This document shows, piece by piece, positions 7,345 through 54,967 of a stretch of 64,000 bases of DNA. The translations under genes and the position numbers were made by a program. The DNA is from Parcubacteria group bacterium GW2011_GWA2_40_23 (GTDB lineage: Bacteria > Patescibacteriota > Patescibacteriia > UBA11705 > JABHMO01). The first letter of the stretch is position 1. Each line of letters starts with the position of its first letter. The stretch lies in contig LBYP01000005.1 of NCBI GenBank assembly GCA_000996245.1, positions 10,305 through 74,304 on the forward strand, written 5' to 3'. The notes beneath the pieces were generated by a model. The model saw only the letters and a list, made by a program, of their open reading frames with translations, did not search any database and was not told the origin of the DNA.

Positions 7345-7381
7345 CCGCCCGCCCCGCAAACGGGGACGGGCGGCATTTTTT
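7345..7381 (+). terminator. rho-independent terminator
   Basis: Hairpin ccgcccgccccgcaaacggggacgggcgg followed by a T-run. Confidence 0.65.
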
Positions 7382-7457
7382 ACATTGACAGTTCCCCAAT
7401 TCTAGCCTAAACTTAGCTGTTGTGGGTTGCGGAAAAGAAACAACCTTGAGGAAACAA

Positions 7458-7925
7458 ATGACCGACCTGGGAACAATTCACAAAGTTCTAAGCGCTTTCC
7501 CTGCCACTCCCCGGATACTGAGAGACGTCTGGATCGCCTCGCGCCGAGGTAACGTCGTCCTCTTCGACCAAAGTGAAATCTCCCCGTCCTGGTTACAGGA
7601 CAAGACCGAACTGCTCATTCCCTTTACCCGCAAGGGAAACAAGTTCTTCTTCGTCATCCAGATCAAGCGCAACGACTACGGCAAGCTGAAAGAGAGATTC
7701 TCTGACCGCACCTTAATAGTTCTGCGCGTCGGTGTCATCCCTTGGACCACAAAACCCAAGGGCTTCCAACTCACCGACAAGAACTACGTAGCCGAAGTGA
7801 ACTACTACCTGCAACGCGGCTGCGAGATCAACACCAGGGTCCGAGTGCAAGCCGATGTCTCAGAACGCCAAGTCGTACTCGGCATTATCGCCGCGCTTTA
7901 CGACCTGCCGAAGTACGTGAAGTAA
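7458..7925 (+). CDS. hypothetical protein, paralog 2 of the tandem pair
   Basis: ATG 7458 inside ORF 7422..7925. 5' UTR GAAACAACCTTGAGGAAAC. Shared motif LIPFTRKGNKFFFVIQ. Confidence 0.5.
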   Translation: MTDLGTIHKVLSAFPATPRILRDVWIASRRGNVVLFDQSEISPSWLQDKTELLIPFTRKGNKFFFVIQIKRNDYGKLKERFSDRTLIVLRVGVIPWTTKPKGFQLTDKNYVAEVNYYLQRGCEINTRVRVQADVSERQVVLGIIAALYDLPKYVK

Positions 7926-7931
7926 ACGAAA

Positions 7932-7968
7932 CCGCTCGAACGTCATCACGTTCGAGCGGCTATTTTTT
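7932..7968 (+). terminator. rho-independent terminator
   Basis: Hairpin ccgctcgaacgtcatcacgttcgagcgg followed by a T-run. Confidence 0.65.
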
Positions 7969-8107
7969 ATATACTACTAATTACGAATCAGCTACTAATC
8001 TACCAATACTAATTTTGCGATCATATTGAACAACTTCAACCTAGTACTATAAAGTGTTCCCTTTAAGTGCTAGGCAAGCAAGCGCAGCGATACAGCAACT
8101 AGAACAA

Positions 8108-12200: not shown

Positions 12201-12340
12201 TTAACAGCAAGTCTCTAGCTATAATCAAAAAAGCAACCCAGTACTATAAAGTGTTCCCTTTAAGTGCTGGGCAAGTAAAACAAGAAAACAAAAAACTAAC
12301 GCCGACTATTTGCTTTGTTGCTTTCTTGTTTTCTTGATTA

Positions 12341-13642
12341 TTGTTAAATATTTTAACCATGTACAATCCAAACCGAATCACAAACAGCTCATCAGGATCA
12401 GACACAGCAGTTCAAAAAGCCTTAAGCGCAACACCAACTCCAGAGTATGAGTTGAATGAGCGTTTTCTTTTACCTTATTTGGACGCTAAAGATGAAGAAC
12501 TTGAGGAAACTCTCACAAGGCTAGAAGATGAACTAATCGCTGAAAGCCAGAAAGAAGGTAATGAAAATAATCCTGTCATTGGTTTTTTGCATGCACTTTA
12601 TTCCCAAGAACTTTATTTAATAATGAAAAACGAGCAAGCCCTGCATGCGGCTGCAAATTGCCCGCCAGGAAAATCATTGGACACACTTTCAGATGAAGAA
12701 TTACAGGTTCTTAATGATAAATATCCGCGTAAACAAATGATGAATTTTCGACTAGAACATAGCATTTTAAGTTACCGACAATCGACGGAAATTGTTTGGG
12801 ACATGCGCCCAAGTGAACATACCAAAGTTGATCAATTCACTGCCAATATCATGCTTGCCGACATGCTTTATCGTAAAGCATCTGAAACAACTGATCCAGC
12901 TGAAGAACAGCAATTAATTGAAGAAGCTGATGGACTGTATAAACGTGTAATCAACAGTGATTTCATTGATAATGGACAAAAAGATGAATTAAAACTTATT
13001 GCTGTGCTACGCGAAGCGCACAAAAAATATTCACCAGACAAACCCTTTCTAATGGAACACGGCACCCCGCGAGAAGATCTGCGTGATGCTAAAGCGGACA
13101 TTAAAATGTATGTCGGCGTACAATCATTCTTGATTCAATTAAAAACTTTGACCGCCAATGAATACGTTGAAGAATTCAATGAGAAAATTTTAGAACGTGC
13201 ACGTCACAGTGTGGCTCAAGGAACATTGATTGTTAAAATTTCAACACCAACATTACGTGAAGCTTATGCTGATCCTGGCCGCGTACATTTAAAAAAAGTC
13301 GTTGATGAATTTGCAACCGGAGTTGATTATGCAGGTGGTGATTTTAACCTTATTTATTTAATCCCCGCAACAGAAAATAAACCAAAAGAAAAGAAAAAAA
13401 TAAATCGACGTTCAGTAGAAAATGATGTTAAGCAATACACAACCTTACGATCTTTACGCCAATTTGGGTTTGATGTGTTACCAACAGCAGAAGGTCTTAA
13501 AAATGCACGAGAACAATTACAAGAAGCCTTAATTTCTGCTATGGAACAAGGCGAATTGCATGTCAGCAAAGAAATGTTATTAAATCCACCTGATGATGTA
13601 GTGGCGATTATGAAACAATATTTATTGGATAGAGCAGCATAA
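12341..13642 (+). CDS. hypothetical protein (433 aa)
   Basis: Long AT-rich ORF with no recognised domain; start may be at MYNPN (12359). Confidence 0.5.
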   Translation: MLNILTMYNPNRITNSSSGSDTAVQKALSATPTPEYELNERFLLPYLDAKDEELEETLTRLEDELIAESQKEGNENNPVIGFLHALYSQELYLIMKNEQALHAAANCPPGKSLDTLSDEELQVLNDKYPRKQMMNFRLEHSILSYRQSTEIVWDMRPSEHTKVDQFTANIMLADMLYRKASETTDPAEEQQLIEEADGLYKRVINSDFIDNGQKDELKLIAVLREAHKKYSPDKPFLMEHGTPREDLRDAKADIKMYVGVQSFLIQLKTLTANEYVEEFNEKILERARHSVAQGTLIVKISTPTLREAYADPGRVHLKKVVDEFATGVDYAGGDFNLIYLIPATENKPKEKKKINRRSVENDVKQYTTLRSLRQFGFDVLPTAEGLKNAREQLQEALISAMEQGELHVSKEMLLNPPDDVVAIMKQYLLDRAA

Positions 13643-13662
13643 ATCTCGGGAAAAAACATTCC

Positions 13663-13703
13663 CAAAAAAAATTAGCGGCGACCTTCATGATGATGGTCGC
13701 CGC
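13663..13703 (-). terminator. rho-independent terminator for the small minus-strand gene
   Basis: Hairpin gcggcgacc...ggtcgccgc with a T-run on the minus strand. Confidence 0.55.
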
Positions 13704-13709
13704 TTGTTG

Positions 13710-13892
13710 TCACGGGTTGCCGCGTCGGGGCACGATCTGCGCCGGGCCACGACGAACTGCGAGTTCGAGTACTTCAGTTGCTTCCTCCTTCTTATTGTTG
13801 ATGACCTCGACTCCGGCCTGCTCGAGCAGACCCACGATAATCCGTCTCGGCGGACGCCGCCTCGACGCACCTGCACTGACGGGCTTCTTCAT
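13710..13892 (-). CDS. small basic protein (60 aa), hypothetical, GC-rich
   Basis: GGGAGG RBS 7 nt upstream of ATG; Arg/Pro-rich N-terminus. Confidence 0.45.
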   Translation of the reverse strand: MKKPVSAGASRRRPPRRIIVGLLEQAGVEVINNKKEEATEVLELAVRRGPAQIVPRRGNP

Positions 13893-14031
13893 GAGAACCT
13901 CCCTTCAGGTGACCAACTAATATATCAAGGTCTTACTTTTTTGTCAATGACACCAGTTGTTTTTCTGCTAAATTTAACTGAAAAAACAACTCTTTTGCAG
14001 GGCTCAATGTCCTCAGCCCCCACAAAAGAGC

Positions 14032-14060
14032 TTGACAGGATCCTCCAGAGATGCTAGATT
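14032..14060 (+). promoter_or_regulatory. sigma70-like promoter (TTGACA-17-TAGATT)
   Basis: Seen in sequence upstream of 14095. Confidence 0.5.
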
Positions 14061-14094
14061 GTAGTGTCCGAGGTAGTATAACCTGGAGGTTCGA

Positions 14095-14436
14095 ATGGAC
14101 TATGACCTGAGTGATTTCCTGACTGCAACCTTTATCGAAGCGCGTCGTCAACAGCTTCTCGAACGCGAACAATCCATCCACGCTCGCCTTGCAACCGAAG
14201 ACATGCCCGAAGCACAACGTACGAACCTGATTCGAGTCGTGCTTCCAAACATCATGGCCGCCCTCGCGCGTATCCATGTACATGCCTACGGCTACTGCAG
14301 CGACTGCGAAGAGCCCATACTGCAAACACGCCTCGAACTCCGACCCGAGTCCCCGCGCTGTGTCCACTGCCAGCAGACATTAGATCGCCAGAATCCGACT
14401 GACCTCCCGCGCGAACAACTCTTGTGGAGGCGTTAG
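14095..14436 (+). CDS. DksA/TraR-family C4 zinc-finger protein
   Basis: C-terminal CSDC-x17-CVHC matches the DksA/TraR zinc-finger spacing. GGAGG RBS. GC-rich. Confidence 0.65.
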   Translation: MDYDLSDFLTATFIEARRQQLLEREQSIHARLATEDMPEAQRTNLIRVVLPNIMAALARIHVHAYGYCSDCEEPILQTRLELRPESPRCVHCQQTLDRQNPTDLPREQLLWRR

Positions 14437-14495
14437 TTCTTCACCGAGTAACGCGAACATGACAACGGGAGCACTCCTCGAAGTGCTCCCGATTT

Positions 14496-16199: not shown

Positions 16200-16370
16200 A
16201 TTGCTTCACTCTGGGGCTTGCCCAGTAGTGTGGCGAAGCCTCTACTACTGGGCCCCCATCGTCTAGTGGTTAGGACACCAGGTTTTCATCCTGGTAACAG
16301 GGGTCCGATTCCCCTTGGGGGTACCATAAAGTACACGCTATGCGTGACTTTATGGCAAGCCATAATACAA
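16200..16370 (+). repeat. tRNA cassette flanks: leader GGGGCTTGCCC + hairpin overlapping the tRNA 5' end, and trailer hairpin including CCA + GGCAAGCCAT
   Basis: Same leader/trailer family as the 53.7-56.2 kb tRNA cluster. Confidence 0.6.
16252..16326 (+). tRNA. tRNA-Glu (UUC)
   Basis: Cloverleaf folded by hand; anticodon loop TTTTCAT; CCA encoded. Confidence 0.8.
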
Positions 16371-16739
16371 GCCACAAGACAAGCCACAATATTTATCGTG
16401 GCACACCAAAAGTGAACGAGTAATCTCGTTCTTTTTTGTTAGTATTCGTTTTTTTCCTTGACAAAAAAACAAGCAGCCTTATCAGCTGCCTATCAATTAT
16501 TACAAATATTTACAAAAAGACTACAACCTCTTAATTTTCTCTCTTATATTCGCTATTTGCTTGGTTTCCTTACTTTTCTTTATATTATTTTTGAGATCAG
16601 TTGTGCGTTTTTTAAGTTGATTTAGATCGTTGATTATTCGTTCCATTTCCTCTACAATAGGCTTGAGAGTGTTTTGTTTTGCCATACAGAATAAATTTAT
16701 ATTAATTCATCTATCTAATAATATCACTTTAAATCATCA

Positions 16740-18882: not shown

Positions 18883-20031
18883 ATGGACCTGAAACACAAA
18901 AACCTCTTTACCGCGAAAGCAGTCCAACACGGCCTTGGGCGCAAGAACACCGGCAAGCTCCAGTCTCTGTGGATCGAACTCCCGCCCTTCTGCAACTTGG
19001 CCTGCACGTACTGCTACGCCTGTGGCGGCGAAAAACGTGACCGCGACAATCTTCTTAACCGCGAAGATTACCTCAACATTCTTAATCAGGCGAAGCAGTT
19101 GGGAGTAGACAGCATCGGAATTCCCGGCGCAGGCGAACCGTTCATCCACGCGAACTTTGAACTCACCATGTGGATTCTGCACGAATGTGCAGCTCGTGAC
19201 ATTTACGTCACGTTGTTCACCACCGGAGAATTCATCACTCGCGAACTGGCGGATGAACTCTTCGAACTGCCAGTTGAGATTATGCTGAAAGGCAATAGTC
19301 TCGACCCAGAAGTGCAAGATCGGTTCGTGAGCAACCCCGATCGAGCAATCCACGGTTACGGTGTGGCCAGAAACCGAGCCATTGAAATCTTGATGGCTGC
19401 AGGGTTCAATGACCCCTCGGCTGCGCAGAAGCACGGTCGGCAAAGTCGCATGGCGCTAGTCACCTCGATCATGACTGACGAAAAAGAAGGCGGTCTGTCC
19501 AACATTGAAGAGGTTGCTCAAATATACCGCTTCTGTCGTGATCGCAACATCATCGCGGACATCGACACCATTCTCAAAAGAGGTCGCGCCCTCGAGTGCG
19601 GACTCTCGTCTGGAGATCGTAATGTCCTGCAGATGTTGATGACACTCCGTCGCATTGCCATCGAAGAATATGGTGATGCCGACACAGTGCTGTCGTCAAC
19701 GTATGTGGAGACGGTATGTGACCGTTTCCATCATCACCTGTACGTTGATGTGTCTGGACGTATTCGACCCTGCATCGGCGCGATGGATGTTGATCTCGGC
19801 AATATCCGATCGACGACCCTGTCAAAGGCCTGGGAATCTCGCGAGCGCCAGATTATCCGCGAACGTCGATACTCTGGTACTTGTGCCAGTTGCGCAAACT
19901 TCCAGGAACATAAGTGCCATTCTTGCCTCGGTCGCAGAACACCAGCAAGTGGAGAAAAATCGCTGACGAACGAAAGCTTGCTACGTGACGGCTGTGTTCA
20001 CACAACAGGATGCATGCTCTATCGGAAATAA
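18883..20031 (+). CDS. radical SAM enzyme with a C-terminal Cys-rich SPASM/twitch-like domain
   Basis: CNLACTYC (CxxxCxxC) near the N-terminus; C-terminal CASCANFQEHKCHSC...C...C cluster. ATG 18883 with AGGAAA RBS. GC-rich. Confidence 0.7.
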   Translation: MDLKHKNLFTAKAVQHGLGRKNTGKLQSLWIELPPFCNLACTYCYACGGEKRDRDNLLNREDYLNILNQAKQLGVDSIGIPGAGEPFIHANFELTMWILHECAARDIYVTLFTTGEFITRELADELFELPVEIMLKGNSLDPEVQDRFVSNPDRAIHGYGVARNRAIEILMAAGFNDPSAAQKHGRQSRMALVTSIMTDEKEGGLSNIEEVAQIYRFCRDRNIIADIDTILKRGRALECGLSSGDRNVLQMLMTLRRIAIEEYGDADTVLSSTYVETVCDRFHHHLYVDVSGRIRPCIGAMDVDLGNIRSTTLSKAWESRERQIIRERRYSGTCASCANFQEHKCHSCLGRRTPASGEKSLTNESLLRDGCVHTTGCMLYRK

Positions 20032-21071: not shown

Positions 21072-21142
21072 TAGACTTAACGTCCCTTTTTAAAAAATGT
21101 CCCACAAGGCTTGAGCCCGGTGGGATTTTACGAATAGAATTG

Positions 21143-21490
21143 CTATCGTTTGTCAGCGATGCAATGCCTTAAAAGGTAGAAATGCAACCACTTACCGGCA
21201 TGGATGTCCGAAAAGGCTACTGGAGGATTAGGTATACCCTCCACAGGAACTTCGAACAGAAGGTCGACATCGCCATCGTCGCTACGGGACTCGACGTGAA
21301 TCAAGTCACCCGTGTCGATTTCGTACCAAGTCGCAGTATAGCTGGAACGAGCATTCGCCGACAGGACCACTGGCGTGGTGAGCTCTAAGCGTAGAACTTC
21401 TTCCAATCTCAGCAACCGACCGGTACAAGTAACAACATACTCGAAATCAGAAAGACCGACGTAGCTTTGCAACAGGATGAGCTGCTTCAT
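21143..21490 (-). CDS. hypothetical protein (115 aa), GC-rich
   Basis: GAGGG RBS; third gene of a three-gene minus-strand cluster. Confidence 0.4.
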   Translation of the reverse strand: MKQLILLQSYVGLSDFEYVVTCTGRLLRLEEVLRLELTTPVVLSANARSSYTATWYEIDTGDLIHVESRSDDGDVDLLFEVPVEGIPNPPVAFSDIHAGKWLHFYLLRHCIADKR

Positions 21491-21515
21491 GCTTCTGCCC
21501 TCGATCTTTCTGCGT

Positions 21516-21740
21516 CTATTTCTGGATCCAGTGATTGGCCAAGAGAACCAGACACTCGTCGCAATGCAGCGGAACCGGGCAGGTATGCGCTTCCGGGAGA
21601 CGCATCTCTTCGCCGCAGGTCACGCAGTAGTAGAACATGTCAGACCCCGCATAGAGCTTGGCGTTGTCGACGCGTTCTTTACCCGCGTTCTTCTCTTGTC
21701 GCAGACGCAATTGCTCCAGGGCCAGTTCTCGCTCGTCCAT
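21516..21740 (-). CDS. small zinc-ribbon protein (74 aa), GC-rich
   Basis: AAGGAGG RBS; CVTC...CPVPLHCDEC cysteine cluster. Confidence 0.45.
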   Translation of the reverse strand: MDERELALEQLRLRQEKNAGKERVDNAKLYAGSDMFYYCVTCGEEMRLPEAHTCPVPLHCDECLVLLANHWIQK

Positions 21741-21765
21741 GAGGAACCTCCTTGTGGGTTAACGA

Positions 21766-21990
21766 CTAGTTACCGCAACCCTCGGTCAGCGGATCGAAAG
21801 ACTCGGCCACGACGCGCTCTTCGGCCCACCTCATCTCCTGCCGACCGATGCGCAGAGCTTCTTCTGCGGACATGAACTTGTGCGCCTGGCTTTTATCCGA
21901 AGCCCAGCCCCAGATGCCATTGAAGTTGCACAGCCACCGATTTCGCAGAGCCTCAGAATCCACGGCAACGTACAGGGGCAACTGTGACAT
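21766..21990 (-). CDS. hypothetical protein (74 aa), GC-rich
   Basis: Start trimmed to ATG 21990, which has a GGAGGTG RBS (ORF track 21766..22047). Confidence 0.4.
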   Translation of the reverse strand: MSQLPLYVAVDSEALRNRWLCNFNGIWGWASDKSQAHKFMSAEEALRIGRQEMRWAEERVVAESFDPLTEGCGN

Positions 21991-22135
21991 GGCGCACCTC
22001 CGCTGGAAGGGTTCATCGATCCGCACAACAACAAAGATTAACATCACAAAGAGGCTATGTCAACAGCAATTATCCGACAAGTTATTTTTTCTCCTACTTT
22101 TCGAATTAGCAGGTATTTATAATATAATCTTTAAC

Positions 22136-29232: not shown

Positions 29233-29914
29233 TATCGAAGTTATTCTAGAACAAGCCAAAAAACTCAATCATACCCTTGAGGTTATTTCTGAAATTAAAT
29301 CCGGCAAAGAGGCCACGGTTTACCAGGTTTTATTGGATGGCAAACTCTTAGCGATGAAAGTTTATAAAAATCAAGAAGACAAAACATTAAAAAATGCGGG
29401 ACAGTATTTAAGTGGAAAACATTATGCGAAACCATCACAAAGAAGGGCAACGGAAAAGGGCAATAAATTTTCTAAAAAATTAAATTATGATAATTGGGTC
29501 AAGCGAGAATTTTATATACTTGAAAAACTATTTAAACTCGGTGCTCAAATACCAGAACCAATTTTACAAATAGAAAATGCTGTTTTTATGGAATATCTGG
29601 GTGATAAAGAAAATTCCGCTCCACGTTTATGCGATTTGAACTTATCAAAAAAAGAGGCTGAGGCTGCTTTCCCTATTGTTCTAGAAACTGCCCTGATATT
29701 CTGGAATTCTGGAATCATCCACGCCGATTTATCGCCCTATAATATCCTTTGGTGGAAAAATAAACCTTATGTGATAGATTTCCCACAAGCGATAGATAAA
29801 AGAACAAACCCCGATGCGCTCAAATTCCTTGAAAGAGATTTACAAAATGTGGTCAAGCATTTTTCTAAGTTTATGGAGATTGATTATGAAAAAATTAGAA
29901 ACCAATTTACCTAA
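29219..29914 (+). CDS. RIO-type serine protein kinase
   Basis: GKEATVY P-loop, LAMKVYK, and IIHADLSPYNIL catalytic loop. Confidence 0.6.
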   Translation: MKIDNIEVILEQAKKLNHTLEVISEIKSGKEATVYQVLLDGKLLAMKVYKNQEDKTLKNAGQYLSGKHYAKPSQRRATEKGNKFSKKLNYDNWVKREFYILEKLFKLGAQIPEPILQIENAVFMEYLGDKENSAPRLCDLNLSKKEAEAAFPIVLETALIFWNSGIIHADLSPYNILWWKNKPYVIDFPQAIDKRTNPDALKFLERDLQNVVKHFSKFMEIDYEKIRNQFT

Positions 29915-30380
29915 TAAATATTTTCGACTAATTTTTATGACGACAACACAACGCGACTTCCTTTCCCGCCGACCGGTTAATGCCACCATTATATTAAGCA
30001 TGAACGTAAATAGTTTTGACATCTCTTCTAAGCTACCCAAGGGTTTCTTTTACGATGACGGTCAATTCAGTTTCCCTGCCGGTTTTTGGGAATCTTATCG
30101 AGTAAATGGCAAAGAATATAATGTCGATGGAAACAGAACGGTTGACCAACAAAAAGAATTAATTCTTGCTGATTTGTTAACTGCGGGATTTAGTCAAAAC
30201 GAAGCGAACGATTTCATAACTGCCCTTGAAGTTAAAGAGGCCCAAACAATGCACTTAACCTTTGATGCTTCTAACAAATGGTTGCGAAATCATCTGGAAC
30301 AAGAAGAGTCTGCCATGCGTATTCTAAATGAAGCAAAAAATGAAGTCCAAAATGAGTTGCAAACAAAGCGGTTGAGATAA
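29886..30380 (+). CDS. hypothetical protein
   Basis: Start chosen at ATG 29886 (GGAG RBS) within ORF 29814..30380. Confidence 0.45.
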   Translation: MKKLETNLPNKYFRLIFMTTTQRDFLSRRPVNATIILSMNVNSFDISSKLPKGFFYDDGQFSFPAGFWESYRVNGKEYNVDGNRTVDQQKELILADLLTAGFSQNEANDFITALEVKEAQTMHLTFDASNKWLRNHLEQEESAMRILNEAKNEVQNELQTKRLR

Positions 30381-30391
30381 AATTATAAAAA

Positions 30392-30425
30392 GAGAGCCCG
30401 GTGGATGACCACACGGGCTCTTTTT
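30392..30425. terminator. bidirectional rho-independent terminator
   Basis: Hairpin agagcccg...cgggctct with A-run and T-run flanks. Confidence 0.6.
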
Positions 30426-30490
30426 ACTTCAGCAGAACATGATGAACTCAATTCTCAAGTATCAGTTAAAACTTGTCGAGACAGAAAAGG

Positions 30491-30700
30491 TCAATACGGA
30501 CCATGACGACTTGCACCTGAGCCCCGAGGTTTTATCCTATAGACCTTTCTTCCCCTTTCAATCCGGTAACAGCCCGTACATTCCGTTTTTATGCAGGACA
30601 CCGTTCCTCTTGGAGAATTGGGACTCTCCGTCTCGGGGAGACCGCTCAAGTCCAACTCAGTCCCACACAAGTCACACGTCAATGCGGATTTTTCCTCTGC
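30491..30700 (-). CDS. small zinc-ribbon protein (70 aa), GC-rich
   Basis: Internal Met of ORF 30491..30895 with GGAGAAG RBS; CDLCG ... CIKTECTGC. Confidence 0.4.
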   Translation of the reverse strand, partial: AEEKSALTCDLCGTELDLSGLPETESPNSPRGTVSCIKTECTGCYRIERGRKVYRIKPRGSGASRHGPY

Positions 30701-30726
30701 CATTTTTTCTTCTCCATCTGGCTTAA

Positions 30727-31044
30727 CTAGCGTAGTGTCCTGTCTCCAACTACCGACAGTTTGGTCGGATCCCAAGCACGCAGACCCAGCAGAATGACGA
30801 AAGCAAGCACCGCCAAGAACGCGAAGACTGGCGAGGTGCTCAGCATATCGCTCGGAGTAATCCCGACCGAGGCCTCCATGACGAACACCAGCCAAGTGAT
30901 GGCCGTAAGAAGAAAAGCACTCATCGCGACGCTGTGGTGGCTATCCGGCCAGTTTCCGCGAGTTGCCAGCCACGCCGGCAAGAACCCCAGCCCCAGGAAT
31001 AGCAAGCTTCCCAATAGAAAGATCAACCCAAAGATAAAGTCCAT
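30727..31044 (-). CDS. small membrane protein (3 TM, 105 aa), GC-rich
   Basis: GGGAGGAG RBS; three hydrophobic segments. Confidence 0.5.
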   Translation of the reverse strand: MDFIFGLIFLLGSLLFLGLGFLPAWLATRGNWPDSHHSVAMSAFLLTAITWLVFVMEASVGITPSDMLSTSPVFAFLAVLAFVILLGLRAWDPTKLSVVGDRTLR

Positions 31045-31188
31045 TTTCTCCTCCCTAGCAGTTAGATCTCAACCAATTACCCTTATTGTACACAAAACGT
31101 GAGGAAAATCAATCTCCATTAAAACCGCCGCCCCTGCCTGCCGGCAGGCAGGCTCTATGAGGAGCGCGGCAGTATGAACAGATGAACC

Positions 31189-31464
31189 TTACGGAATCAC
31201 GACCTCGTTCGGTCCCCGACCCCACTTGCCAGTGAAGCGAGCCGAACGCTGTGTGATCTCGGGCAGCGCCGTGCTACCTATCGGCCGCTCCCAGACACAG
31301 ACGACTCCACGTCGATCGGTAAGAATCCACTTAATGACGTTAGCGGCGCGCTCGTCGACAGCCATCGTCTTCACATACCATTCGGATTCCGAGTCGGAAC
31401 CGACGAACTTTGGCTTCGTGACAAGCGAGTTGCCAACTTCGTTGTCGTGCATTGCAATTTTCAT
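31189..31464 (-). CDS. hypothetical protein (91 aa), GC-rich
   Basis: GAGGGG RBS. Confidence 0.45.
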   Translation of the reverse strand: MKIAMHDNEVGNSLVTKPKFVGSDSESEWYVKTMAVDERAANVIKWILTDRRGVVCVWERPIGSTALPEITQRSARFTGKWGRGPNEVVIP

Positions 31465-31497
31465 CTAGAACCCCTCAGGTAACGAAGTTTCTCTAAG

Positions 31498-31752
31498 CTA
31501 GACAGCGCGCAGGATCAGAAGAACGACGGCAATAACTGCCGTAACCAGGAAAAGTGACAAGTAACCTCGGTTGCGCTTCCTCCGTGCCAGTTCGGTGCGG
31601 CCAGGTCTGCCTTCTCCCTCACAGACGTGGCAGACACCGTCCTTGTGGTGAATCTTATACCAGACTCGACCACAATGGATGCACTGCTCCTGTTCTTCGT
31701 CGCCCATGGCCGTAAACGTTTCCAGAACACGATCACCAAGATCGTCACTCAT
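31498..31752 (-). CDS. zinc-ribbon protein with a C-terminal TM helix (84 aa), GC-rich
   Basis: GGAGG RBS; CIHCG...CHVCEG; C-terminal LSLFLVTAVIAVVLLIL. The architecture resembles membrane anti-sigma-like proteins. Confidence 0.5.
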   Translation of the reverse strand: MSDDLGDRVLETFTAMGDEEQEQCIHCGRVWYKIHHKDGVCHVCEGEGRPGRTELARRKRNRGYLSLFLVTAVIAVVLLILRAV

Positions 31753-31867
31753 GAGTTGCCTCCAGGTTGTTACTTCCTACGAATAACAACTCAGGGTAAC
31801 AAAAAAAGGCAGATTTGTCAATGATTGTGCTATTTTACTGCAAAAAAGGCTAAAATTTGGTACAATA

Positions 31868-33048: not shown

Positions 33049-33873
33049 ATGAAAAACCTAAACAAACAAATTGCTTTATTCAAAGGCAAAGGAATCCGCA
33101 GAATTATTTATAAAAAAGAATGGTGGTTTTCTGTTGTGGATGTAGTCGCAGCTTTAACTGATAGCCCAACCCCACGGAAATACTGGGGGAAAATTAAACA
33201 ACGCGAGTTTATTGATCCTCAGTTGTCCCCAATTTGGGGACAACTGAAATTAGAGTCTTCTGATGGTAAAACTTATAAAACAGACTGTGCAAACACGGAA
33301 GGTCTTTTTCGCATTATTCAATCTATTCCGTCCCCGAAAGCAGAACCATTCAAACGCTGGCTAGCAAAAACTGGTTACGAAAGAATTCAAGAAATTGATA
33401 ACCCAGAATTAGGTTCAAAACGAGCCAAGCTTCTTTATAAACTTAAAGGTTATCCTGATAGTTGGATCGAAAAAAGACTACAAGGGATTGCTGTCCGCAA
33501 CGCATTAACTGATGAATGGGATAAACGTGGTGCCGATAATCAACAATCTTACGAAATTTTAACTGCGGAGATATCTAAAGCAACGTTTGAATTGACGCCA
33601 TCTGATTACAAAAAGCTAAAGGGACTTAAAAAAGAGAACCTTCGCGATCACATGAACAGTATGGAACTCATATTAACAATGCTCAGCGAACAAACCACCA
33701 AAGAAATTCATAAAGACAAAAATTCCAAAGGTTTACCAAAATTAAAAGATGATGCCCGAGCTGGTGGTCAAATTGCGGGGTCTACGCGTAAGCAAATCGA
33801 AAGAAAACTTGGACGAACAGTTATTTCGAAGAAAAACTTTTTATCCGACGTAAATAAAAAGCAATTAAAATAA
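33049..33873 (+). CDS. Bro-N / RhuM (DinD-like) family protein
   Basis: N-terminal IRRIIYKKEWWFSVVDVVAALTD matches the Bro-N pattern. Confidence 0.5.
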   Translation: MKNLNKQIALFKGKGIRRIIYKKEWWFSVVDVVAALTDSPTPRKYWGKIKQREFIDPQLSPIWGQLKLESSDGKTYKTDCANTEGLFRIIQSIPSPKAEPFKRWLAKTGYERIQEIDNPELGSKRAKLLYKLKGYPDSWIEKRLQGIAVRNALTDEWDKRGADNQQSYEILTAEISKATFELTPSDYKKLKGLKKENLRDHMNSMELILTMLSEQTTKEIHKDKNSKGLPKLKDDARAGGQIAGSTRKQIERKLGRTVISKKNFLSDVNKKQLK

Positions 33874-35975: not shown

Positions 35976-36018
35976 ATAATAAATCCCCGCTCACGTTGCG
36001 CAAGCAGGGACTTTTCTA

Positions 36019-36537
36019 TCAGTACGTTCTTTTTTCACGATTCTCCGTGGCGATTCGTCCCGTCCCCTTCGGATCGAAGACGTGAACCAGGAGCATGGCC
36101 CACTCGAGGCAAAAGGCCTTGAAGCCAATCCAGTACCGCATTGGGACCAGCTTGACTTTTCGGTGATGCGCCAGACGGAAGGTCACCCAGAACCGCAAGG
36201 CATGTTGCCAGTGCGTCACCACCGTGAAGTGCTGGTCATGATCGCGCTCCACAAGACGTAGAACACCCGAGATATTCTCGTAGGTGTCACGTGACAGTTC
36301 CTCGCACAAGATCTTGTTGGCATGAACGCCTTGTTCATTCAACCAAGAACGCATGAGCAAGCTAGACGCGATAGTCTGGGTATCAGCCGGCAGGTAAATC
36401 CCGCCCATGACAACGATGGCATCGTACTTTCCGCTCTGCCACAAGGACAAAGCACGCATGAGCCGCTTCTCCGTCATCATGCCGTCCAAGCGATTCTTCG
36501 CTACAACCTCGCAACTGGGAACGAGCAAATAACGCAT
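36019..36537 (-). CDS. DUF218 (YdcF/SanA-like) protein, GC-rich
   Basis: AIVVMGG ... TSL ... VTHWQHALR pattern. Confidence 0.5.
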   Translation of the reverse strand: MRYLLVPSCEVVAKNRLDGMMTEKRLMRALSLWQSGKYDAIVVMGGIYLPADTQTIASSLLMRSWLNEQGVHANKILCEELSRDTYENISGVLRLVERDHDQHFTVVTHWQHALRFWVTFRLAHHRKVKLVPMRYWIGFKAFCLEWAMLLVHVFDPKGTGRIATENREKRTY

Positions 36538-38185: not shown

Positions 38186-38458
38186 TTAGCCAACGAGACG
38201 GTAGAGATAATCACGAGCTACAGGTATCCCTGGCTTCGAACTTGCCTGGAATTCGTCGTCGGTTTGCAGACGTTCGAGAACTTTTCCGGGCGAAATGAGC
38301 TTGCACAATTCCGAGTACAGATACGGTTGCACGAAATTAGGTGTACGCACCTGCACAGTCTCAGTGAGAGTCCCTAGATCGTACCAAAGTCCTGGCAAGT
38401 ACCCCAGAACTTCGAGAATGAGAGCACTCACAGCCGATCGAACTTCTAACTCGTTCAT
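38186..38458 (-). CDS. hypothetical protein (about 90 aa), GC-rich
   Basis: Internal ATG of ORF 38186..38470. Confidence 0.35.
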   Translation of the reverse strand: MNELEVRSAVSALILEVLGYLPGLWYDLGTLTETVQVRTPNFVQPYLYSELCKLISPGKVLERLQTDDEFQASSKPGIPVARDYLYRLVG

Positions 38459-38571
38459 TCTTATTCTCAATGTGGTTGATCATTTCGATCTGCGGACTCT
38501 CGACATTATCATTATAACAATAATTTGTAAACAATTCTTTCTTCATTATTTGTTATTCAAAATTCTATATT

Positions 38572-38612
38572 TTTGAAAAAAATTCTCCCCCCAGCTGCAT
38601 GCAGCTGGGGGG
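38572..38612 (-). terminator. rho-independent terminator (perfect 13-bp palindrome)
   Basis: ccccccagctgcatgcagctgggggg with a T-run on the minus strand. Confidence 0.65.
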
Positions 38613-38620
38613 AGTCGAAC

Positions 38621-39505
38621 CTAGTTCAGCACGTCGAGCTTGCCGTGCTTGATCCAGTTCTTGAACGTGGTCGTGGGGAAGCGGAGCCGAAGCTTCTCGA
38701 GCTCGGCCTCGCTGGTGCCGACGGACTCGGGGGTCTGCCCGCTCAACTTGATGATCGCGAGCACCTTGTCCACTTGCACTGACGAGTCAGGGTAGTCCCA
38801 GAACTTGTCACGCAGCTTGCTCATGAGGGCGTCGAGCGAACGCTGGTAGGCCAGGTCAGCCAGATCCTGTGCGTGCTCCTTGGTGATGGACCCGTGCGAG
38901 TAGATCTCGTCGTCAGCCTTGTAGCCATTCGCATGCCAGAGCTCGTTTTTGAAACGCTCTACCAGCTTGCTCGGCGTGAAGTACCCGCTCTCGTTGAATT
39001 CGACCGGGTACTGGTACAGCTTTAGGAGCGTATACTCAGCCATCCGCGCATGGTTGACACCAAGCGTCACGTCGATGTCGTGCTGGGTCTTGCCCAGCTC
39101 TTCAAGGGTGGTGTTGTGCTTCTTGATCTCGCTCAAGAAGCTGTTGAACCTCTCCGAGAGCGACTCGGAGTACCCATCGTCGTACAGATCCTCGCACCGG
39201 TAGTTGAGCAGGGACAGGAGATTCCCTTCGAACCCTTTGTGCTTGCTCTTTTTCACGAGGAGCTGGAGCTCTTCCTTCGTCGTGTTGAGCTGCTGGTACG
39301 TCATTAACCCTGCGTCCAGGTAACCCATGAGGTGCTGAACGTCCTGCTCGAGGTCGAACGGAGGCGTCTCCGCCTGCTTCCAGCCGCGGATCTCCTCAGC
39401 CCAGCTGTCGATCTGTGCGGCACGCCGCGTCTCTTCCGAGATCTCGCTCATCTTGCTGCAGTACACCATGTTGAGCATGAGGACAATGAACAGAACGCGA
39501 CGCAT
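38621..39505 (-). CDS. secreted hypothetical protein (signal peptide), GC-rich
   Basis: MRRVLFIVLMLNMVYCS signal; start chosen at the second ATG. Confidence 0.5.
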   Translation of the reverse strand: MRRVLFIVLMLNMVYCSKMSEISEETRRAAQIDSWAEEIRGWKQAETPPFDLEQDVQHLMGYLDAGLMTYQQLNTTKEELQLLVKKSKHKGFEGNLLSLLNYRCEDLYDDGYSESLSERFNSFLSEIKKHNTTLEELGKTQHDIDVTLGVNHARMAEYTLLKLYQYPVEFNESGYFTPSKLVERFKNELWHANGYKADDEIYSHGSITKEHAQDLADLAYQRSLDALMSKLRDKFWDYPDSSVQVDKVLAIIKLSGQTPESVGTSEAELEKLRLRFPTTTFKNWIKHGKLDVLN

Positions 39506-39551
39506 GAAGCACCCCAAAACAGTTGATCTGTCCGCCCTTTGCGAACCATAA

Positions 39552-39580
39552 ATAATAGCAATTTAAATCATTTTTGTCAA
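39552..39580 (-). promoter_or_regulatory. sigma70-like promoter (TTGACA-17-TATTAT) for the secreted-protein gene
   Basis: Seen on the minus strand in AT-rich DNA. Confidence 0.5.
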
Positions 39581-39624
39581 CAATTTTTTATGAGATGTGA
39601 ACAAAACCAAAGTAGATTTTGTAT

Positions 39625-41708: not shown

Positions 41709-41862
41709 CTTAAGCGTCATTGCGAGACCGTGAAACAGGTCGAAGTAATCCCCGATATCTCAACTATTTTGTATTGCTATCATAGATATATTAATAAGTT
41801 AACGATCATTAAGATTTCGGGGATTGCTTCGGGCTGCCCATAGCGCCCTCGCAATGACCTTT
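41709..41862. repeat. imperfect ~50-bp inverted repeat pair flanking a 55-bp AT-rich core
   Basis: Left arm gtcattgcgag...cgaagtaatccccga; right arm tcggggattgcttcg...ctcgcaatgac; sits at the junction into a GC-rich island. Confidence 0.4.
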
Positions 41863-41871
41863 GGATTTAGG

Positions 41872-41911
41872 GAAAAAAACACCCCCGCACCACAGATGAC
41901 TGGGTGCGGGG
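41872..41911 (-). terminator. rho-independent terminator
   Basis: ccccgcacc...ggtgcgggg with a T-run on the minus strand. Confidence 0.6.
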
Positions 41912-41952
41912 TAAACCCAACTCATTGTCGAACGAGCGGGGCGTTATGGCTA

Positions 41953-42108
41953 TCACCAGCGGGAACTGAACTCGTTGGTGTCGTCGTAGCCGAAGTCCGG
42001 GGAGAGATCCTTGAACAAAAGGTGTAAGCCGATGGCCAGACCGATCAGTGGGATGCACAGAAGAACAGTACAGATGCCGAGGACGCAGTCGATTTTCTGT
42101 CTCAGCAT
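41953..42108 (-). CDS. small single-TM protein (51 aa), GC-rich
   Basis: Not in the ORF track (<60 aa); GGAAGAGAGGTG RBS; sequence MLRQKIDCVLGICTVLLCIPLIGLAIGLHLLF. Confidence 0.35.
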   Translation of the reverse strand: MLRQKIDCVLGICTVLLCIPLIGLAIGLHLLFKDLSPDFGYDDTNEFSSRW

Positions 42109-42599
42109 GAACACCTCTCTTCCTGTTTTTCGACCTCACGGGGATGTCGAATCGAGTAGAGGTAGAGGCCGAAAGCCAGGATGTCGGCGACGAACATGAT
42201 CCGAATGAAGTAGATGATCAGGAAGTCGAAGGCTTTGATCCAGGGGGACGAGTCTTCGAACACGAGGAAGGGGAGGATCTGCATGTCGATGGTTTTTACC
42301 ACGAAACAGAGACCGTAGCAGAGACTTGCTCCGAGAAAGGAGATTGTAACGCGAGTTGTCAGCTGCTTACCTTTACGGATCTCATCTCGCAGGTCGTCGG
42401 AAAACACCCAGAAGGAGAAGACCGCAACCATCGCCATCCAGAAAGTGGACGTGATGGATCCTTGATCTTCGGGAAAGACGCCAGGTTCGGTGTTCCAGAT
42501 GAAGACGCCGAGGAAGAGGATGATCGTGACGATTACGTGGGGAATCCAGAAGAGCAAGTCGAACACGAGCTTGAACCGCACGGGCGTGGGCTGTGCCAT
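42102..42599 (-). CDS. multi-TM membrane protein (165 aa), GC-rich
   Basis: Start MAQPTPVRF with GGAGGAAA RBS; 4-5 hydrophobic helices. Confidence 0.5.
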   Translation of the reverse strand: MAQPTPVRFKLVFDLLFWIPHVIVTIILFLGVFIWNTEPGVFPEDQGSITSTFWMAMVAVFSFWVFSDDLRDEIRKGKQLTTRVTISFLGASLCYGLCFVVKTIDMQILPFLVFEDSSPWIKAFDFLIIYFIRIMFVADILAFGLYLYSIRHPREVEKQEERCSC

Positions 42600-42631
42600 G
42601 GTTTCCTCCAATCCGAGTTTGTTGTTATTTC

Positions 42632-42877
42632 CTAGGCTGCACGGCGCGGCGGTGTGTGGTCATCCCCGTCTGGAAGTTCTTGCAGACGTTTTTTCAGTCT
42701 GTTCTCGGGCAGGTGGTGGTACATGAGTCCACAATCTTGGCAGTAGTTCTGGGTGGGGCCAAGTTCTGTCGGACGTTTTCCGCCGTAGATCGGTGCGCCG
42801 ACCGGAGTGCGTGTGATTTCTCTCACGATCGGGCCACCACAGACAACACACTTTGCATCGGTCACTTCGGCTGCCAT
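42632..42877 (-). CDS. small zinc-ribbon protein (81 aa), GC-rich
   Basis: MAAEVTDAKCVVCGG ... CQDCG; N-terminal pattern like the 70-aa protein at 30491..30700. Confidence 0.45.
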   Translation of the reverse strand: MAAEVTDAKCVVCGGPIVREITRTPVGAPIYGGKRPTELGPTQNYCQDCGLMYHHLPENRLKKRLQELPDGDDHTPPRRAA

Positions 42878-42958
42878 TGTTTTGCCTCAACGCAGTTACA
42901 TAGTTGATTAGAGATTAACATTTGGCGTGGTTTTGTCAATTCCATCCGATTTGCGATA

Positions 42959-53670: not shown

Positions 53671-53746
53671 TGGAGCGGGTAAGGGGAGTCGAACCCCTAT
53701 CTTCAGCTTGGAAAGCTGTAATAATACCGCTATACTATACCCGCCC
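53671..53746 (-). tRNA. tRNA-Gly (UCC)
   Basis: Hand-folded; anticodon loop TTTCCAA; CCA encoded. Confidence 0.8.
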
Positions 53747-53915
53747 TGTAGTACATGCTCCGCATGACTACAGGGCAAGCCCTTTATCAAGCGAAACTTT
53801 AGTACGTTTCATCGCATGACTACAGGGCAAGCCCTTTATCAAGCGAAGCTTTAGTACATTTTTCCGCGTGATTGCAGGACCAAGCCCAACGATCCGCGAA
53901 GCTGTAATTCAAGTC
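53747..53915 (-). repeat. three tandem copies of the tRNA leader element (GGGCTTGCCC + hairpin with GCGAAGC-type apex)
   Basis: Successive copies are progressively more degenerate. Confidence 0.6.
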
Positions 53916-53956
53916 CTGTTATTATACCAAGATTTATTGCTTTTTCAAGACCTGTT

Positions 53957-54967
53957 CTAATTTACTTCAATATCAATATGCTTAACCCCAGGGAATTTTT
54001 TATGCAGTTTTTGCTCAAGTTCATCAATTCTTCGGCCCATTAGGCGAGCCATCTGGTCACTATAGTCAACACAGAAGCGTAAGAACTCATCATAGTTGTT
54101 ATTGATTATCTCAAACTCTTCATGCAAATCTCCGTCTTTAATAATATCCTTCAATAAGGAATAGCCATTAAATTCAATTTCGCATTTGACGCGATAAATT
54201 CCATAATCTAAAACTATTGATTTAAAGTCGAGTACTTTTTCGATCCCAGGATCAGCTTCTAGCGTTTCAATAATTTCATTGCGCATATCTTCGGGCATGG
54301 CTTTGCCAATTAGAAATTCCCGATTCTTATTTATTAAGAAAAGAGCCATAATGCCCAGCATGACACCGATGACAATTGAACCGATTGCATCGAAAAAATA
54401 TAAGCCAGTAAAATGAGTCAAAAGAATACTCACAAACGCAACTATAGTGCCAAGGATCGCAAGCCCGTCTTCATATAAAACCGCCAAAGATGAGGGGTCG
54501 CCATCTCTTAAAATATGTTTTAAATGTTTTTGGGGATTGTGTTTTTTTAATTCATACCAAGCAATTCCGAAGGTTGAAAATTCTACAACGAAGGCAATGA
54601 GCAACACTAAGTAAGTCAGAAAGCCGGTGTGAATTGCACGCTCATGGACCAAAGCCATGATACCACTATATACGGTGACACCGGAACCAATAAAGAAAAC
54701 GCCGCAAGCTGAAATTAAAGCTCATAAAAATCGTTCTCGTCCGTACCCATAAATAAAAGATTCACTCGGTTTTTTGACCGAGCGTTTAATTCCAATAAAA
54801 AGTAAAATTTGATTTGAAGAATCGGCCAAGCTGTGAATCGCTTCAGAAAACATGGTTGCTGAGCCGGAGATGAAGGCACTAATGAATTTCAAAGTCATTA
54901 CTACGAGGTTGCCCAAAAGGGCAGCAACAACAGGCAGGTAGCCTACAGACTTTTGTGTATTTATCAT
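53957..54967 (-). pseudogene. cation diffusion facilitator (CDF) transporter gene interrupted by an in-frame TGA (about 54722)
   Basis: ORFs 54722..54967 and 53957..54658 are in the same frame: GYGRERFL[TGA]ALISACGVFFIG; the HSLAD motif is present. Confidence 0.55.

What the first reader, a model, noticed from the sequence alone, without database searches (positions are those of the whole stretch)
30430..31760. GC-rich four-gene operon of tiny zinc-ribbon and membrane proteins (candidate uncharacterised module)
Four co-oriented minus-strand genes with strong GGAGG-type RBSs and 27-40 nt spacers. The products are a 84-aa Zn-ribbon protein with a C-terminal TM anchor, a 91-aa soluble protein, a 105-aa 3-TM protein, and a 70-aa CxxCG...CxxxxCxxC Zn-ribbon protein. 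The operon ends at a shared bidirectional terminator. None matches a family I recognise. The layout (a Zn-ribbon protein with a TM anchor plus a small 3-TM partner) resembles anti-sigma/holin-like or small toxin/immunity modules. A similarly built operon lies at 41.9-42.9 kb.
Basis: partly seen in the sequence, partly recalled or inferred. Interest (0 to 1): 0.7.

Follow-up and report, generated by a model that had tools for sequence, protein, structure and literature searches.

The report
GC-rich islet of four orphan genes
Four real but tiny genes of unknown function sit in a small GC-rich, probably horizontally acquired patch of an AT-rich Parcubacteria genome, but they are a lineage-specific collection rather than a conserved functional module, so the finding is fairly ordinary.

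Summary
The four minus-strand ORFs exist as described and are real genes. They are conserved in two diverged relatives, with dN/dS of 0.14-0.26 and a coding-type codon-position pattern. They are not one tight operon. A conserved intrinsic terminator and a promoter-like site split them into two two-gene units, A-B and C-D. The locus is one of nine GC-rich islets (about 53% GC against 37%) in a groundwater Parcubacteria/Paceibacterota genome, and independent assemblies reproduce it. A (84 aa) belongs to an unnamed family of tail-anchored Cys4 zinc-ribbon proteins found across the candidate phyla radiation (CPR): 67 clusters, with no Pfam or PDB relative. B (91 aa) belongs to a small family of soluble alpha/beta proteins; its one named homologue is from Paceibacterota. 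C (105 aa, 3 TM) and D (70 aa zinc ribbon) are orphans of this lineage and its close relatives. In 11 distant genomes A stands alone, and in 4 lineages B stands alone. Gene content at the locus also varies among close relatives. This argues against an obligate quartet. No similarity was found to anti-sigma factors, holins, toxin-antitoxin or defence systems, phages or plasmids. The best reading is a variable accessory islet of small membrane and zinc-binding proteins exchanged among Patescibacteria. Function remains inferred only.

The parts
31793..31821 (-). Putative promoter of the A-B unit: TTGACA, 17 nt, TACCCT
   Evidence: Read by eye. The -35 hexamer is perfect but the -10 matches only 3 of 6, so it falls below the threshold of the scan. 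The upstream 115 nt aligns with L005 as part of an 85.6% identical block.
31498..31752 (-). Gene A: 84-aa tail-anchored Cys4 zinc-ribbon protein (C24, C27, C41, C44; basic RRKRNR stretch; TM helix at about 61-84)
   Evidence: ORF. dN/dS is 0.14-0.28 against L005 and L011. The family has 67 clusters with E<1e-3. Invariant residues are C24, C27, G39, C41 and C44. The AF2 model has pLDDT 83.5, with zinc knuckles at 21-46 and a helix at 52-83.
31189..31464 (-). Gene B: 91-aa soluble alpha/beta protein of a small family whose one named homologue is from Paceibacterota
   Evidence: ORF. Three homologues were found among 5.8 billion clusters, plus L025-L027. There is a tandem paralogue, B2', in L005. 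dN/dS is 0.14-0.20. The AF2 model has pLDDT 73.
31121..31170 (-). Internal intrinsic-terminator-like hairpin after B. In this lineage the loop carries a 20-nt perfect palindrome and the U-run is shortened to 4.
   Evidence: The fold is -31.1 kcal/mol, z = -2.4. The same hairpin with a U7 tail is conserved after B or B2' in L005 and L011. The palindrome is at 31133-31152.
31085..31112 (-). Promoter-like site of the C-D unit: TTGATT, 16 nt, TACAAT
   Evidence: Listed. The -10 region is TACAAT in L005 and CACAAT in L011.
30727..31044 (-). Gene C: 105-aa protein with three hydrophobic segments, inferred N-out/C-in, with a charged C-terminal tail
   Evidence: ORF and hydropathy. The only relative among 5.8 billion clusters is the L005 orthologue at 77% identity. 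dN/dS is 0.26. The gene is frame-shifted in L011.
30491..30703 (-). Gene D: 70-aa soluble zinc-ribbon protein (C10, C13, C37, C42) with a basic C-terminal half
   Evidence: ORF. The orthologue in L011 has the same length and 53% amino-acid identity. Codon-position identity is 0.69/0.63/0.48, and only this frame is open in both lineages. The gene is absent from L005.
30385..30427 (.). Bidirectional intrinsic terminator shared with the convergent plus-strand gene 29814-30380
   Evidence: Fold energies are -24.3 kcal/mol on the minus strand and -25.8 kcal/mol on the plus strand, with z = -5.3 and -6.5. A 48-nt stretch is 92% identical directly after C' in L005.

Best explanation
The region is a roughly 1.35-kb accessory islet of atypical composition (about 53% GC against a 37% background) in a groundwater Parcubacteria/Paceibacterota genome. 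It carries four genuine small genes arranged as two tandem two-gene units: promoter, A, B, terminator, then promoter, C, D, bidirectional terminator.

Each unit pairs one membrane protein with one soluble protein.
- A is inferred to be tail-anchored in the cytoplasmic membrane. Its acidic N-terminal helix and Cys4 zinc ribbon would face the cytoplasm, because a basic stretch lies before the single C-terminal TM helix and there is no signal peptide. It most plausibly tethers a cytoplasmic partner to the membrane.
- B is a small soluble alpha/beta protein.
- C is a 3-TM protein, inferred N-out/C-in.
- D is a soluble zinc ribbon with a basic tail.

The four genes are together because this site, between the Lactamase_B_3 gene and the RIO1/Rce1-like genes, is a variable hotspot that collects laterally exchanged small genes. 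They do not form an obligate four-part machine.

Shown: the genes are real and under purifying selection; the units are split by a conserved terminator; A and B belong to families that occur alone elsewhere; C and D are orphans of this lineage and its close relatives; the locus varies among relatives.

Inferred: topology, metal binding, the membrane-tether role, and lateral origin from other, higher-GC Patescibacteria.
For: - Composition. This is one of nine such protein-coding islets, which make up 19% of the window.
- Not an assembly artefact: identical sequence occurs in five independent samples or assemblies, including GCA_000993485.1. Synteny is kept in relatives that are about 79% identical in the flanks.
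- Coding: dN/dS is 0.14-0.28. GC3 exceeds GC2 for A, B and C. D's frame is conserved.
- Two units.
- A family spans several CPR lineages and is unnamed.
- B family is small.
- C is an orphan.
- No co-occurrence of the quartet outside the close relatives.
- Locus plasticity: B2' duplication, gain of gene Y and loss of D in L005; C frameshift in L011.
- A-family genes often have a higher GC3 than their neighbours in other genomes, for example 0.51 against 0.29 in L016 and 0.74 against 0.45 in L019. This is consistent with mobility.
- Literature: PMC12455944 reports hundreds of genomic islands and transferred genes in Patescibacteria, mostly exchanged within the phylum.
Against: - No donor was identified, and no relative with an empty site was found.
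- The islet predates the split of three lineages yet stays GC-rich. Polarised substitutions show no clear decay toward AT (GC>AT 69 against AT>GC 56). Recent transfer is therefore not demonstrated, and selection could be maintaining the composition.
- The tight spacing of A-B (33 nt) and C-D (23 nt), with the A-B pairing kept in all three lineages, is compatible with real pairwise functional coupling.
- No flanking direct repeats or mobility genes mark the islet.
- No expression data are available.
- Function is inferred from architecture only.
Confidence: 0.6

Rival explanations
1. The locus holds two small two-component modules. In each pair a membrane protein (A or C) sequesters or is regulated by a soluble partner (B or D). 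This would work like a membrane-anchored anti-sigma or anti-adaptor factor, a holin-antiholin pair, or a small toxin-immunity pair.
For: - The spacing is short: 33 nt for A-B and 23 nt for C-D.
- A-B adjacency is kept in all three lineages. C-D is kept in two, although C is frame-shifted in L011.
- Each pair combines one membrane protein and one soluble protein.
- A terminator separates the pairs.
Against: - A occurs without B in 11 distant loci, and B occurs without A in 4 lineages.
- D is dispensable in L005, where C is kept.
- There are no matches in PADLOC, Pfam, NCBIfam or PHROGs.
- No sigma factor or lysin gene is nearby (gene tables).
Confidence: 0.2
2. The islet is a prophage or mobile-element remnant, for example a degraded lysis or early-gene cassette, with C acting as a class-I-type holin.
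For: - C is 105 aa with three hydrophobic segments, an inferred N-out/C-in topology and a charged C-terminus. From my own knowledge, this is the generic layout of lambda S105.
- A Bro-N domain gene, a family common in phages, lies 1.3 kb away and is itself variable.
- The composition is foreign.
Against: - No relatives of A or B were found in IMG/VR viral contigs.
- No DNA match of the islet, and no protein match of A or B, was found in 50,697 phage records. The islet DNA also matched nothing in 72,556 plasmid records.
- There are no significant PHROGs hits.
- The BFVD fold search for B gave a best E-value of 0.06.
- There is no endolysin, integrase or att-like repeat.
Confidence: 0.1
3. The ORFs are spurious reading frames in GC-rich DNA, for example a structured non-coding RNA or an assembly chimera.
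For: - GC-rich DNA has few stop codons, so it yields long ORFs by chance.
- Antisense ORFs are present.
- D's own GC profile is atypical, with GC2 highest.
Against: - Purifying selection acts on all four.
- Third codon positions are the most variable.
- The cysteines and the TM segments are conserved.
- A has 67 homologous clusters.
- The AF2 models are confident.
- There are no Rfam matches.
- The same sequence occurs in five independent samples or assemblies.
Confidence: 0.03

Closest known systems
Genomic islands and individually transferred genes of Patescibacteria (PMC12455944)
   Same: A compositionally atypical segment in a streamlined CPR genome that carries mostly hypothetical genes. 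Its relatives lie in other Patescibacteria, and gene content varies among close relatives.
   Different: It is very small (1.35 kb) and has no mobility genes or att repeats. It is older than the split of three lineages and has not decayed toward AT. It is one of nine such islets in 64 kb, a denser mosaic (19%) than the 13% maximum reported in that paper.
Zinc-binding membrane-anchored anti-sigma factors (ZAS/zf-HC2 type, e.g. RsrA/RslA/ChrR; from my own knowledge)
   Same: A is a small protein with a cytoplasmic Cys-rich metal-binding domain followed by a TM helix, encoded next to a small soluble protein.
   Different: A lacks the HxxxCxxC motif and the four-helix anti-sigma domain. No ECF sigma gene is adjacent, and Pfam gives no zf-HC2 match. 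A is a CxxC-13-CxxC ribbon.
Tail-anchored rubredoxin RubA of cyanobacteria and plastids (from my own knowledge)
   Same: A Cys4 (CxxCG...CxxC) metal knuckle domain followed by a single C-terminal TM helix, in a protein of about 100 aa or fewer.
   Different: The knuckle spacing is 13 residues rather than about 29. There is no Pfam Rubredoxin match. The organism is not photosynthetic.
Class I holins (lambda S105 type; from my own knowledge)
   Same: C is 105 aa with three hydrophobic segments, an inferred N-out/C-in topology and a charged C-terminal tail.
   Different: There is no sequence match in PHROGs or Pfam, no dual-start motif, no endolysin and no prophage context. The only homologues are orthologues in close relatives: L005 and a frame-shifted copy in L011.
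Small alpha/beta phage proteins such as anti-CRISPR AcrIF9 (PDB 7chr)

Membership tests
Anti-sigma factor, zinc-binding (zf-HC2 / ZAS) | HxxxCxxC motif within an anti-sigma domain, detectable by Pfam zf-HC2/RsrA-type models | tested here: not met
   No such Pfam hit at E<=1 for A, and none among 45 family members at E<=0.1. The invariant residues are C24, C27, C41 and C44 in a CxxC-13-CxxC arrangement.
Anti-sigma factor, zinc-binding (zf-HC2 / ZAS) | Co-transcribed ECF sigma factor gene | tested here: not met
   The gene tables of L001, L002, L005 and L006 show no sigma-factor domain within 10 kb. In one distant locus (L021) the 194-aa gene upstream of the A homologue reads like an ECF-type sigma factor. 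It is divergently oriented and was not scanned against Pfam. It is a single case among 11 loci.
Holin (any Pfam/PHROG holin family) | Sequence membership in a holin family | tested here: not met
   C has zero Pfam and zero PHROGs matches at E<=1.
Holin (any Pfam/PHROG holin family) | Adjacent endolysin or spanin, or a prophage context | tested here: not met
   The neighbours are Lactamase_B_3, RIO1, Asp/Glu racemase and an Rce1-like protease. There are no phage matches.
Holin (any Pfam/PHROG holin family) | Membrane permeabilisation or lysis timing activity | not testable with these tools
   This needs an expression assay.
Known anti-phage defence or toxin-antitoxin systems (PADLOC-DB) | Match of any component to a PADLOC model | tested here: not met
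   None of the four proteins matches any family at E<=1.
Zinc ribbon (structural class) | Two CxxC knuckles on beta-hairpins, invariant across homologues | tested here: met
   For A, C24, C27, C41 and C44 are invariant in 45 sequences, and the AF2 model places knuckles at 21-46 with pLDDT of about 90. For D, C10, C13, C37 and C42 are conserved in the L011 orthologue. Metal binding itself was not tested.
Horizontally acquired genomic islet | Composition deviating from the host genome | tested here: met
   GC is 0.53 against 0.37. GC3 is 0.58-0.69 against 0.30-0.40 in native genes.
Horizontally acquired genomic islet | Patchy phylogenetic distribution, an empty site in relatives, or an identifiable donor | tested here: inconclusive
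   Gene content varies among three relatives, and the A and B families are patchy. No empty site or donor was found. There is no clear amelioration signal.
Single operon | No internal terminator or promoter between the genes | tested here: not met
   The 144-nt B-C gap holds a terminator hairpin conserved in three lineages and a promoter-like site whose -10 region is nearly conserved.

The most novel reading that the evidence does not exclude
The A family is a CPR-specific, membrane-tethered zinc-ribbon adaptor with a dedicated conserved role. It would hold a cytoplasmic regulator or nucleic acid at the membrane of these ultra-small episymbionts. One family member carries four tandem copies of the domain, which would fit an interaction module. 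The A-B and C-D pairs would be small regulatory or toxin-immunity cassettes that circulate among Patescibacteria on GC-rich micro-islets, and the GC-rich composition would be actively maintained rather than a relic of transfer.
Probability: 0.15. Interest if true: 0.55.

Novelty: new member of a known kind. Interest (0 to 1): 0.3.

Why it matters
The finding matters modestly. It shows that four 'hypothetical' micro-ORFs in a candidate-phyla-radiation genome are real genes under selection. It also defines an unnamed family of tail-anchored zinc-ribbon proteins found across several CPR lineages, with no Pfam model and no solved structure. Small membrane proteins of CPR bacteria are almost wholly uncharacterised, and some must underlie their episymbiotic lifestyle, so a defined family with a confident model gives a concrete target. 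The dense mosaic of GC-rich islets is arguably more interesting than this one locus: 19% of the window, kept across lineages whose core genes are saturated at synonymous sites. It raises the question of how foreign composition persists in a streamlined AT-rich genome.

Tried and rejected
- A concatenated A+B+C+D query to the search for homologous proteins returned nothing, although the proteins are in the collection. I treat this as a tool quirk, not a result.
- The afdb50 fold library was unavailable.
- The Pfam, PHROGs, PADLOC and NCBIfam scans gave only sub-threshold generic zinc-finger noise.
- A profile search of the A family against PDB sequences gave a best E-value of 1.7.
- Foldseek of A against PDB gave a best E-value of 1.6.
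- The BFVD search for B gave a best E-value of 0.06.
- Viral-contig scans for A and B found no relatives.
- Searches of the islet DNA against phage and plasmid records, and of proteins A and B against phage records, found nothing.
- Rfam gave nothing at E<=1.
- There are no flanking direct repeats or att-like sites.
- There is no homology between this locus and the look-alike at 41.9-42.9 kb, or with other small islet proteins.
- The three-taxon polarised substitution test for amelioration was inconclusive.
- The first genome contigs attempt, with the 45-sequence alignment, failed for lack of a conserved stretch. It was repeated with 8 sequences.
- I considered a structured ncRNA because GC-rich intergenic regions in AT-rich genomes are often RNAs. 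I rejected this on the coding signatures.

Full report
**What is in the sequence**

The window is AT-rich, 0.37 GC outside the islets, but it contains sharply bounded GC-rich patches. The finding's coordinates fall on one of these, at 30460-31799 with GC about 0.53.

On the minus strand there are four ORFs:
- A, 31498-31752, 84 aa
- B, 31189-31464, 91 aa
- C, 30727-31044, 105 aa
- D, 30491-30703, 70 aa

Each is preceded by a GGAGG-like ribosome-binding site. A has CxxC-13-CxxC, then a basic stretch and one C-terminal hydrophobic segment. C has three hydrophobic segments. B and D have none.

A strong bidirectional terminator hairpin lies at about 30385-30427. It is shared with the convergent gene at 29814-30380.

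**The organism, and whether the sequence is genuine**

Protein A is KKR07441.1 of a 'Parcubacteria group bacterium' MAG, GCA_000993485.1. The identical locus occurs in five independent samples or assemblies from NCBI, JGI, ENA and Logan. The GC-rich patch is therefore not an assembly chimera.

**Are these real genes?**

Yes. Two diverged relatives carry the locus at the same site, next to the Lactamase_B_3 gene. L005/L006 are about 79-80% identical to the window in the flanking core genes, and L011 is similarly diverged (dS about 1.1-1.2 in flanking core genes).

- Between the window and L005, Nei-Gojobori dN/dS is 0.14 for A, 0.20 for B and 0.26 for C. Against L011 it is 0.21 for A and 0.14 for B.
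- A, B and C show GC3 > GC2, as expected for coding sequence.
- D looked doubtful at first. Its GC2 is highest and it is absent from L005. However, L011 has a 70-codon orthologue with 53% amino-acid identity and conserved C10, C13, C37 and C42. The DNA is only 60% identical, third codon positions are the most variable (0.69/0.63/0.48), and only this frame is open in both lineages.
- There are no Rfam matches.

**Not one tight operon**

The spacers are 33 nt (A-B), 144 nt (B-C) and 23 nt (C-D). They are not the 27-40 nt reported.

The B-C gap contains a GC-rich hairpin followed by a run of U. In L005 and L011 the same hairpin is a textbook intrinsic terminator with seven U residues. It is followed by a promoter-like -10 region (TACAAT in L005, CACAAT in L011) and the ribosome-binding site of C. 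In the window lineage the loop has gained a 20-nt perfect palindrome.

The layout is therefore promoter, A-B, terminator, then promoter, C-D, bidirectional terminator. Read-through cannot be excluded.

**Family membership**

None of the four proteins matches Pfam, PHROGs, PADLOC or NCBIfam at a meaningful level.

*Protein A.* An exhaustive HMMER search of 1.84 billion representative proteins found 67 clusters with E<1e-3 and 42 with E<1e-10. Nearly all are 80-110 aa and align over their full length, including the C-terminal TM helix.
- C24, C27, G39, C41 and C44 are invariant. E19, I25, Y32 and G51 are nearly invariant. The core motif is DExxExCIHCxxxWYxIHxxDGVCHxCQxxGxPGR.
- Named members and genome hits come from Paceibacterota/Parcubacteria, Peribacteria, Buchananbacteria, Magasanikiibacteriota and Falkowbacteria. 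Two further bins are labelled Gammaproteobacteria and Woesearchaeota, which may be mis-binning.
- One member, from Parcubacteria GW2011_GWC2_38_7, has four tandem copies of the domain before its TM helix.
- Family members give only sub-threshold generic zinc-finger matches in Pfam. A family profile finds nothing in the PDB.
- AlphaFold2 with the family alignment gives pLDDT 83.5, with zinc knuckles at 21-46 and one long helix at 52-83. Foldseek against the PDB gives nothing with an E-value below 1.6.

*Protein B.* It has only three homologous clusters among 5.8 billion, plus four metagenome loci, one of which (L028) is the same contig as L009.
- L005 carries a tandem paralogue, B2', of 115 aa.
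- Its AF2 model has pLDDT 73 and is a beta-alpha-beta3 sandwich.
- The viral structure library gives a best E-value of 0.06.

*Protein C.* Its only relative is the L005 orthologue.

*Protein D.* The only relative found is the L011 orthologue, seen by tblastn against the fetched loci. D itself was never used as a query against any public collection.

**Is it a module?**

The decisive test is co-occurrence.
- In 11 distant loci that carry an A homologue (L012-L022), tblastn finds no B, C or D within the flanks held (up to about 5 kb where the contig allows). The neighbours are unrelated housekeeping or hypothetical genes.
- In four other lineages that carry a B homologue (L009/L028, L025, L026, L027), there is no A, C or D.
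- Among close relatives the locus is plastic. L005 has a duplicated B, lacks D and has an unrelated 104-aa gene, Y. L011 has a frame-shifted C. The flanking gene content also differs: the Bro-N, RIO1 and racemase genes are present or absent.

The quartet is thus a lineage-specific assemblage at a variable site. Pairwise coupling of A-B and C-D remains possible, because each pair is closely spaced and joins a membrane protein to a soluble one. However, A and B are clearly able to exist alone.

**Origin**

I found no relatives in viral contigs (for A and B), in phage records (islet DNA and proteins A and B) or in plasmid records (islet DNA). There are no att-like repeats.
- In several other genomes the A-family gene has a much higher GC3 than its neighbours. 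Examples are 0.51 against 0.29 in L016, 0.74 against 0.45 in L019 and 0.49 against 0.33 in L013. This is consistent with lateral movement among CPR bacteria, some of which are GC-rich; L018, from Buchananbacteria, is 57.5% GC.
- A published survey reports hundreds of genomic islands and transferred genes in Patescibacteria, mostly exchanged within the phylum (PMC12455944).
- Against a simple recent-transfer story, the islet predates the split of three lineages. Its synonymous divergence from L005 is lower than that of the flanking core genes: dS is 0.30-0.60 against 0.85-1.6. A three-taxon polarisation shows no consistent decay toward AT.

**Mechanism (inferred)**

- A has no signal peptide, and a +5 basic stretch lies immediately before its only TM helix, which sits at the extreme C-terminus. 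By the positive-inside rule it is a tail-anchored protein whose zinc ribbon faces the cytoplasm. The most economical role is tethering or sequestering a cytoplasmic partner at the membrane.
- C is predicted N-out/C-in, because its C-terminal tail carries four of its five basic residues.
- D's basic C-terminal half suggests binding to nucleic acid or to an acidic partner.

None of this has been tested.

**Comparison with known systems**

- *Anti-sigma factors of the ZAS type.* The general design is the same, but the defining HxxxCxxC motif, the anti-sigma domain and an adjacent sigma gene are all absent.
- *Class I holins.* C has the same size and inferred topology, but there is no family match, no lysin and no phage context.
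- *Tail-anchored rubredoxin.* The domain order is the same as in A, but the knuckle spacing is wrong and there is no Pfam match.
- *Defence or toxin-antitoxin systems.* There is no PADLOC match.

I therefore file the locus as an accessory genomic islet that carries uncharacterised small-protein families.

**Verdict**

The module interpretation is not supported. Novelty is limited to an unnamed small-protein family found across several CPR lineages, plus lineage-specific orphan genes. Interest is about 0.3.

Noticed in passing
window 305-3874, 6783-7964, 13608-14491, 18888-20031, 21112-22065, 30460-31799, 35996-36528, 38200-39584, 41775-42940: Nine protein-coding GC-rich islets (GC 0.52-0.57 against a 0.37 background) make up about 19% of the window and are interleaved with core genes (PolA, YchF, TsaD/E, MetK). 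They encode an MFS transporter-like protein, a radical-SAM protein, DUF218, a TraR/DksA-like zinc finger and many small orphan proteins. At least the DUF218 islet and the target islet are kept, still GC-rich, in a relative whose core genes are near synonymous saturation.
   Followed up: partly
window 16322-16376, 53742-53796, 55054-55108, 55617-55671, 55797-55851, 56031-56085, 56209-56263: Every tRNA gene is flanked by a conserved two-tier hairpin (consensus about GTACAnGCTTCGCnTGAC inside variable outer arms). The outer stem pairs with the tRNA's own acceptor end, and the hairpin is followed by CAAGCC or TAAACCC. The arms co-vary with tRNA identity. The inter-tRNA spacer folds at -60.7 kcal/mol, z = -5.6. 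This could be a processing, terminator or repeat element. A similarly built hairpin-plus-CAAGC repeat occurs at 8037-8081 and 12234-12278 (93% identical).
   Followed up: partly
window 41883-41916 and 2794-2827: The intrinsic terminator of the second small-gene islet (minus strand, hairpin plus U7) has a 34-nt, 88% complementary inverted copy inside the first GC-rich islet. Separate islets therefore share a terminator-like element.
   Followed up: partly
window 41775-42940: The 'similarly built operon' encodes an 81-aa zinc ribbon and a 169-aa multi-TM protein. It has no detectable sequence similarity to A-D. The resemblance is in layout only.
   Followed up: yes
window 21516-21740; L017 2702-3037: A 74-aa zinc-ribbon ORF in another GC-rich islet has a homologue (tblastn E = 9e-8, shared LYAGSxMFYYC motif) about 2 kb from the A-family gene of a distant Parcubacteria genome. 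This is a possible hint of a shared pool of small accessory genes. It is a single case.
   Followed up: partly
window 53671-58090: The 16S rRNA gene (56597-58090, minus strand) is followed by a run of tRNA genes (Val, Ile, Phe, Pro, Lys, Gly) and no 23S rRNA gene within the window. This suggests an unlinked rRNA arrangement.
   Followed up: no
window 30727-31752 compared with L005 and L011: Compared with L005, the islet genes show lower synonymous divergence than the flanking core genes. dS is 0.49 for A, 0.30 for B and 0.60 for C, against 0.85-1.64 for the core genes. A stays at about 0.46-0.50 in all three pairwise comparisons. Possible causes are later exchange between lineages, constraint on synonymous sites, or the small number of sites.
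   Followed up: partly
window 33049-33873: A Bro-N domain gene (a phage-associated family) lies 1.3 kb from the islet. It is present in this lineage but absent at the same place in L005/L006. This is another sign that the neighbourhood is a variable accessory region.
   Followed up: no
L005 10610-10957; L027 6001-6531: The B family shows structural plasticity. The tandem paralogue B2' in L005 carries a roughly 24-residue insertion containing Cys residues. In L027 the B domain is the N-terminal half of a 176-aa ORF.
   Followed up: no
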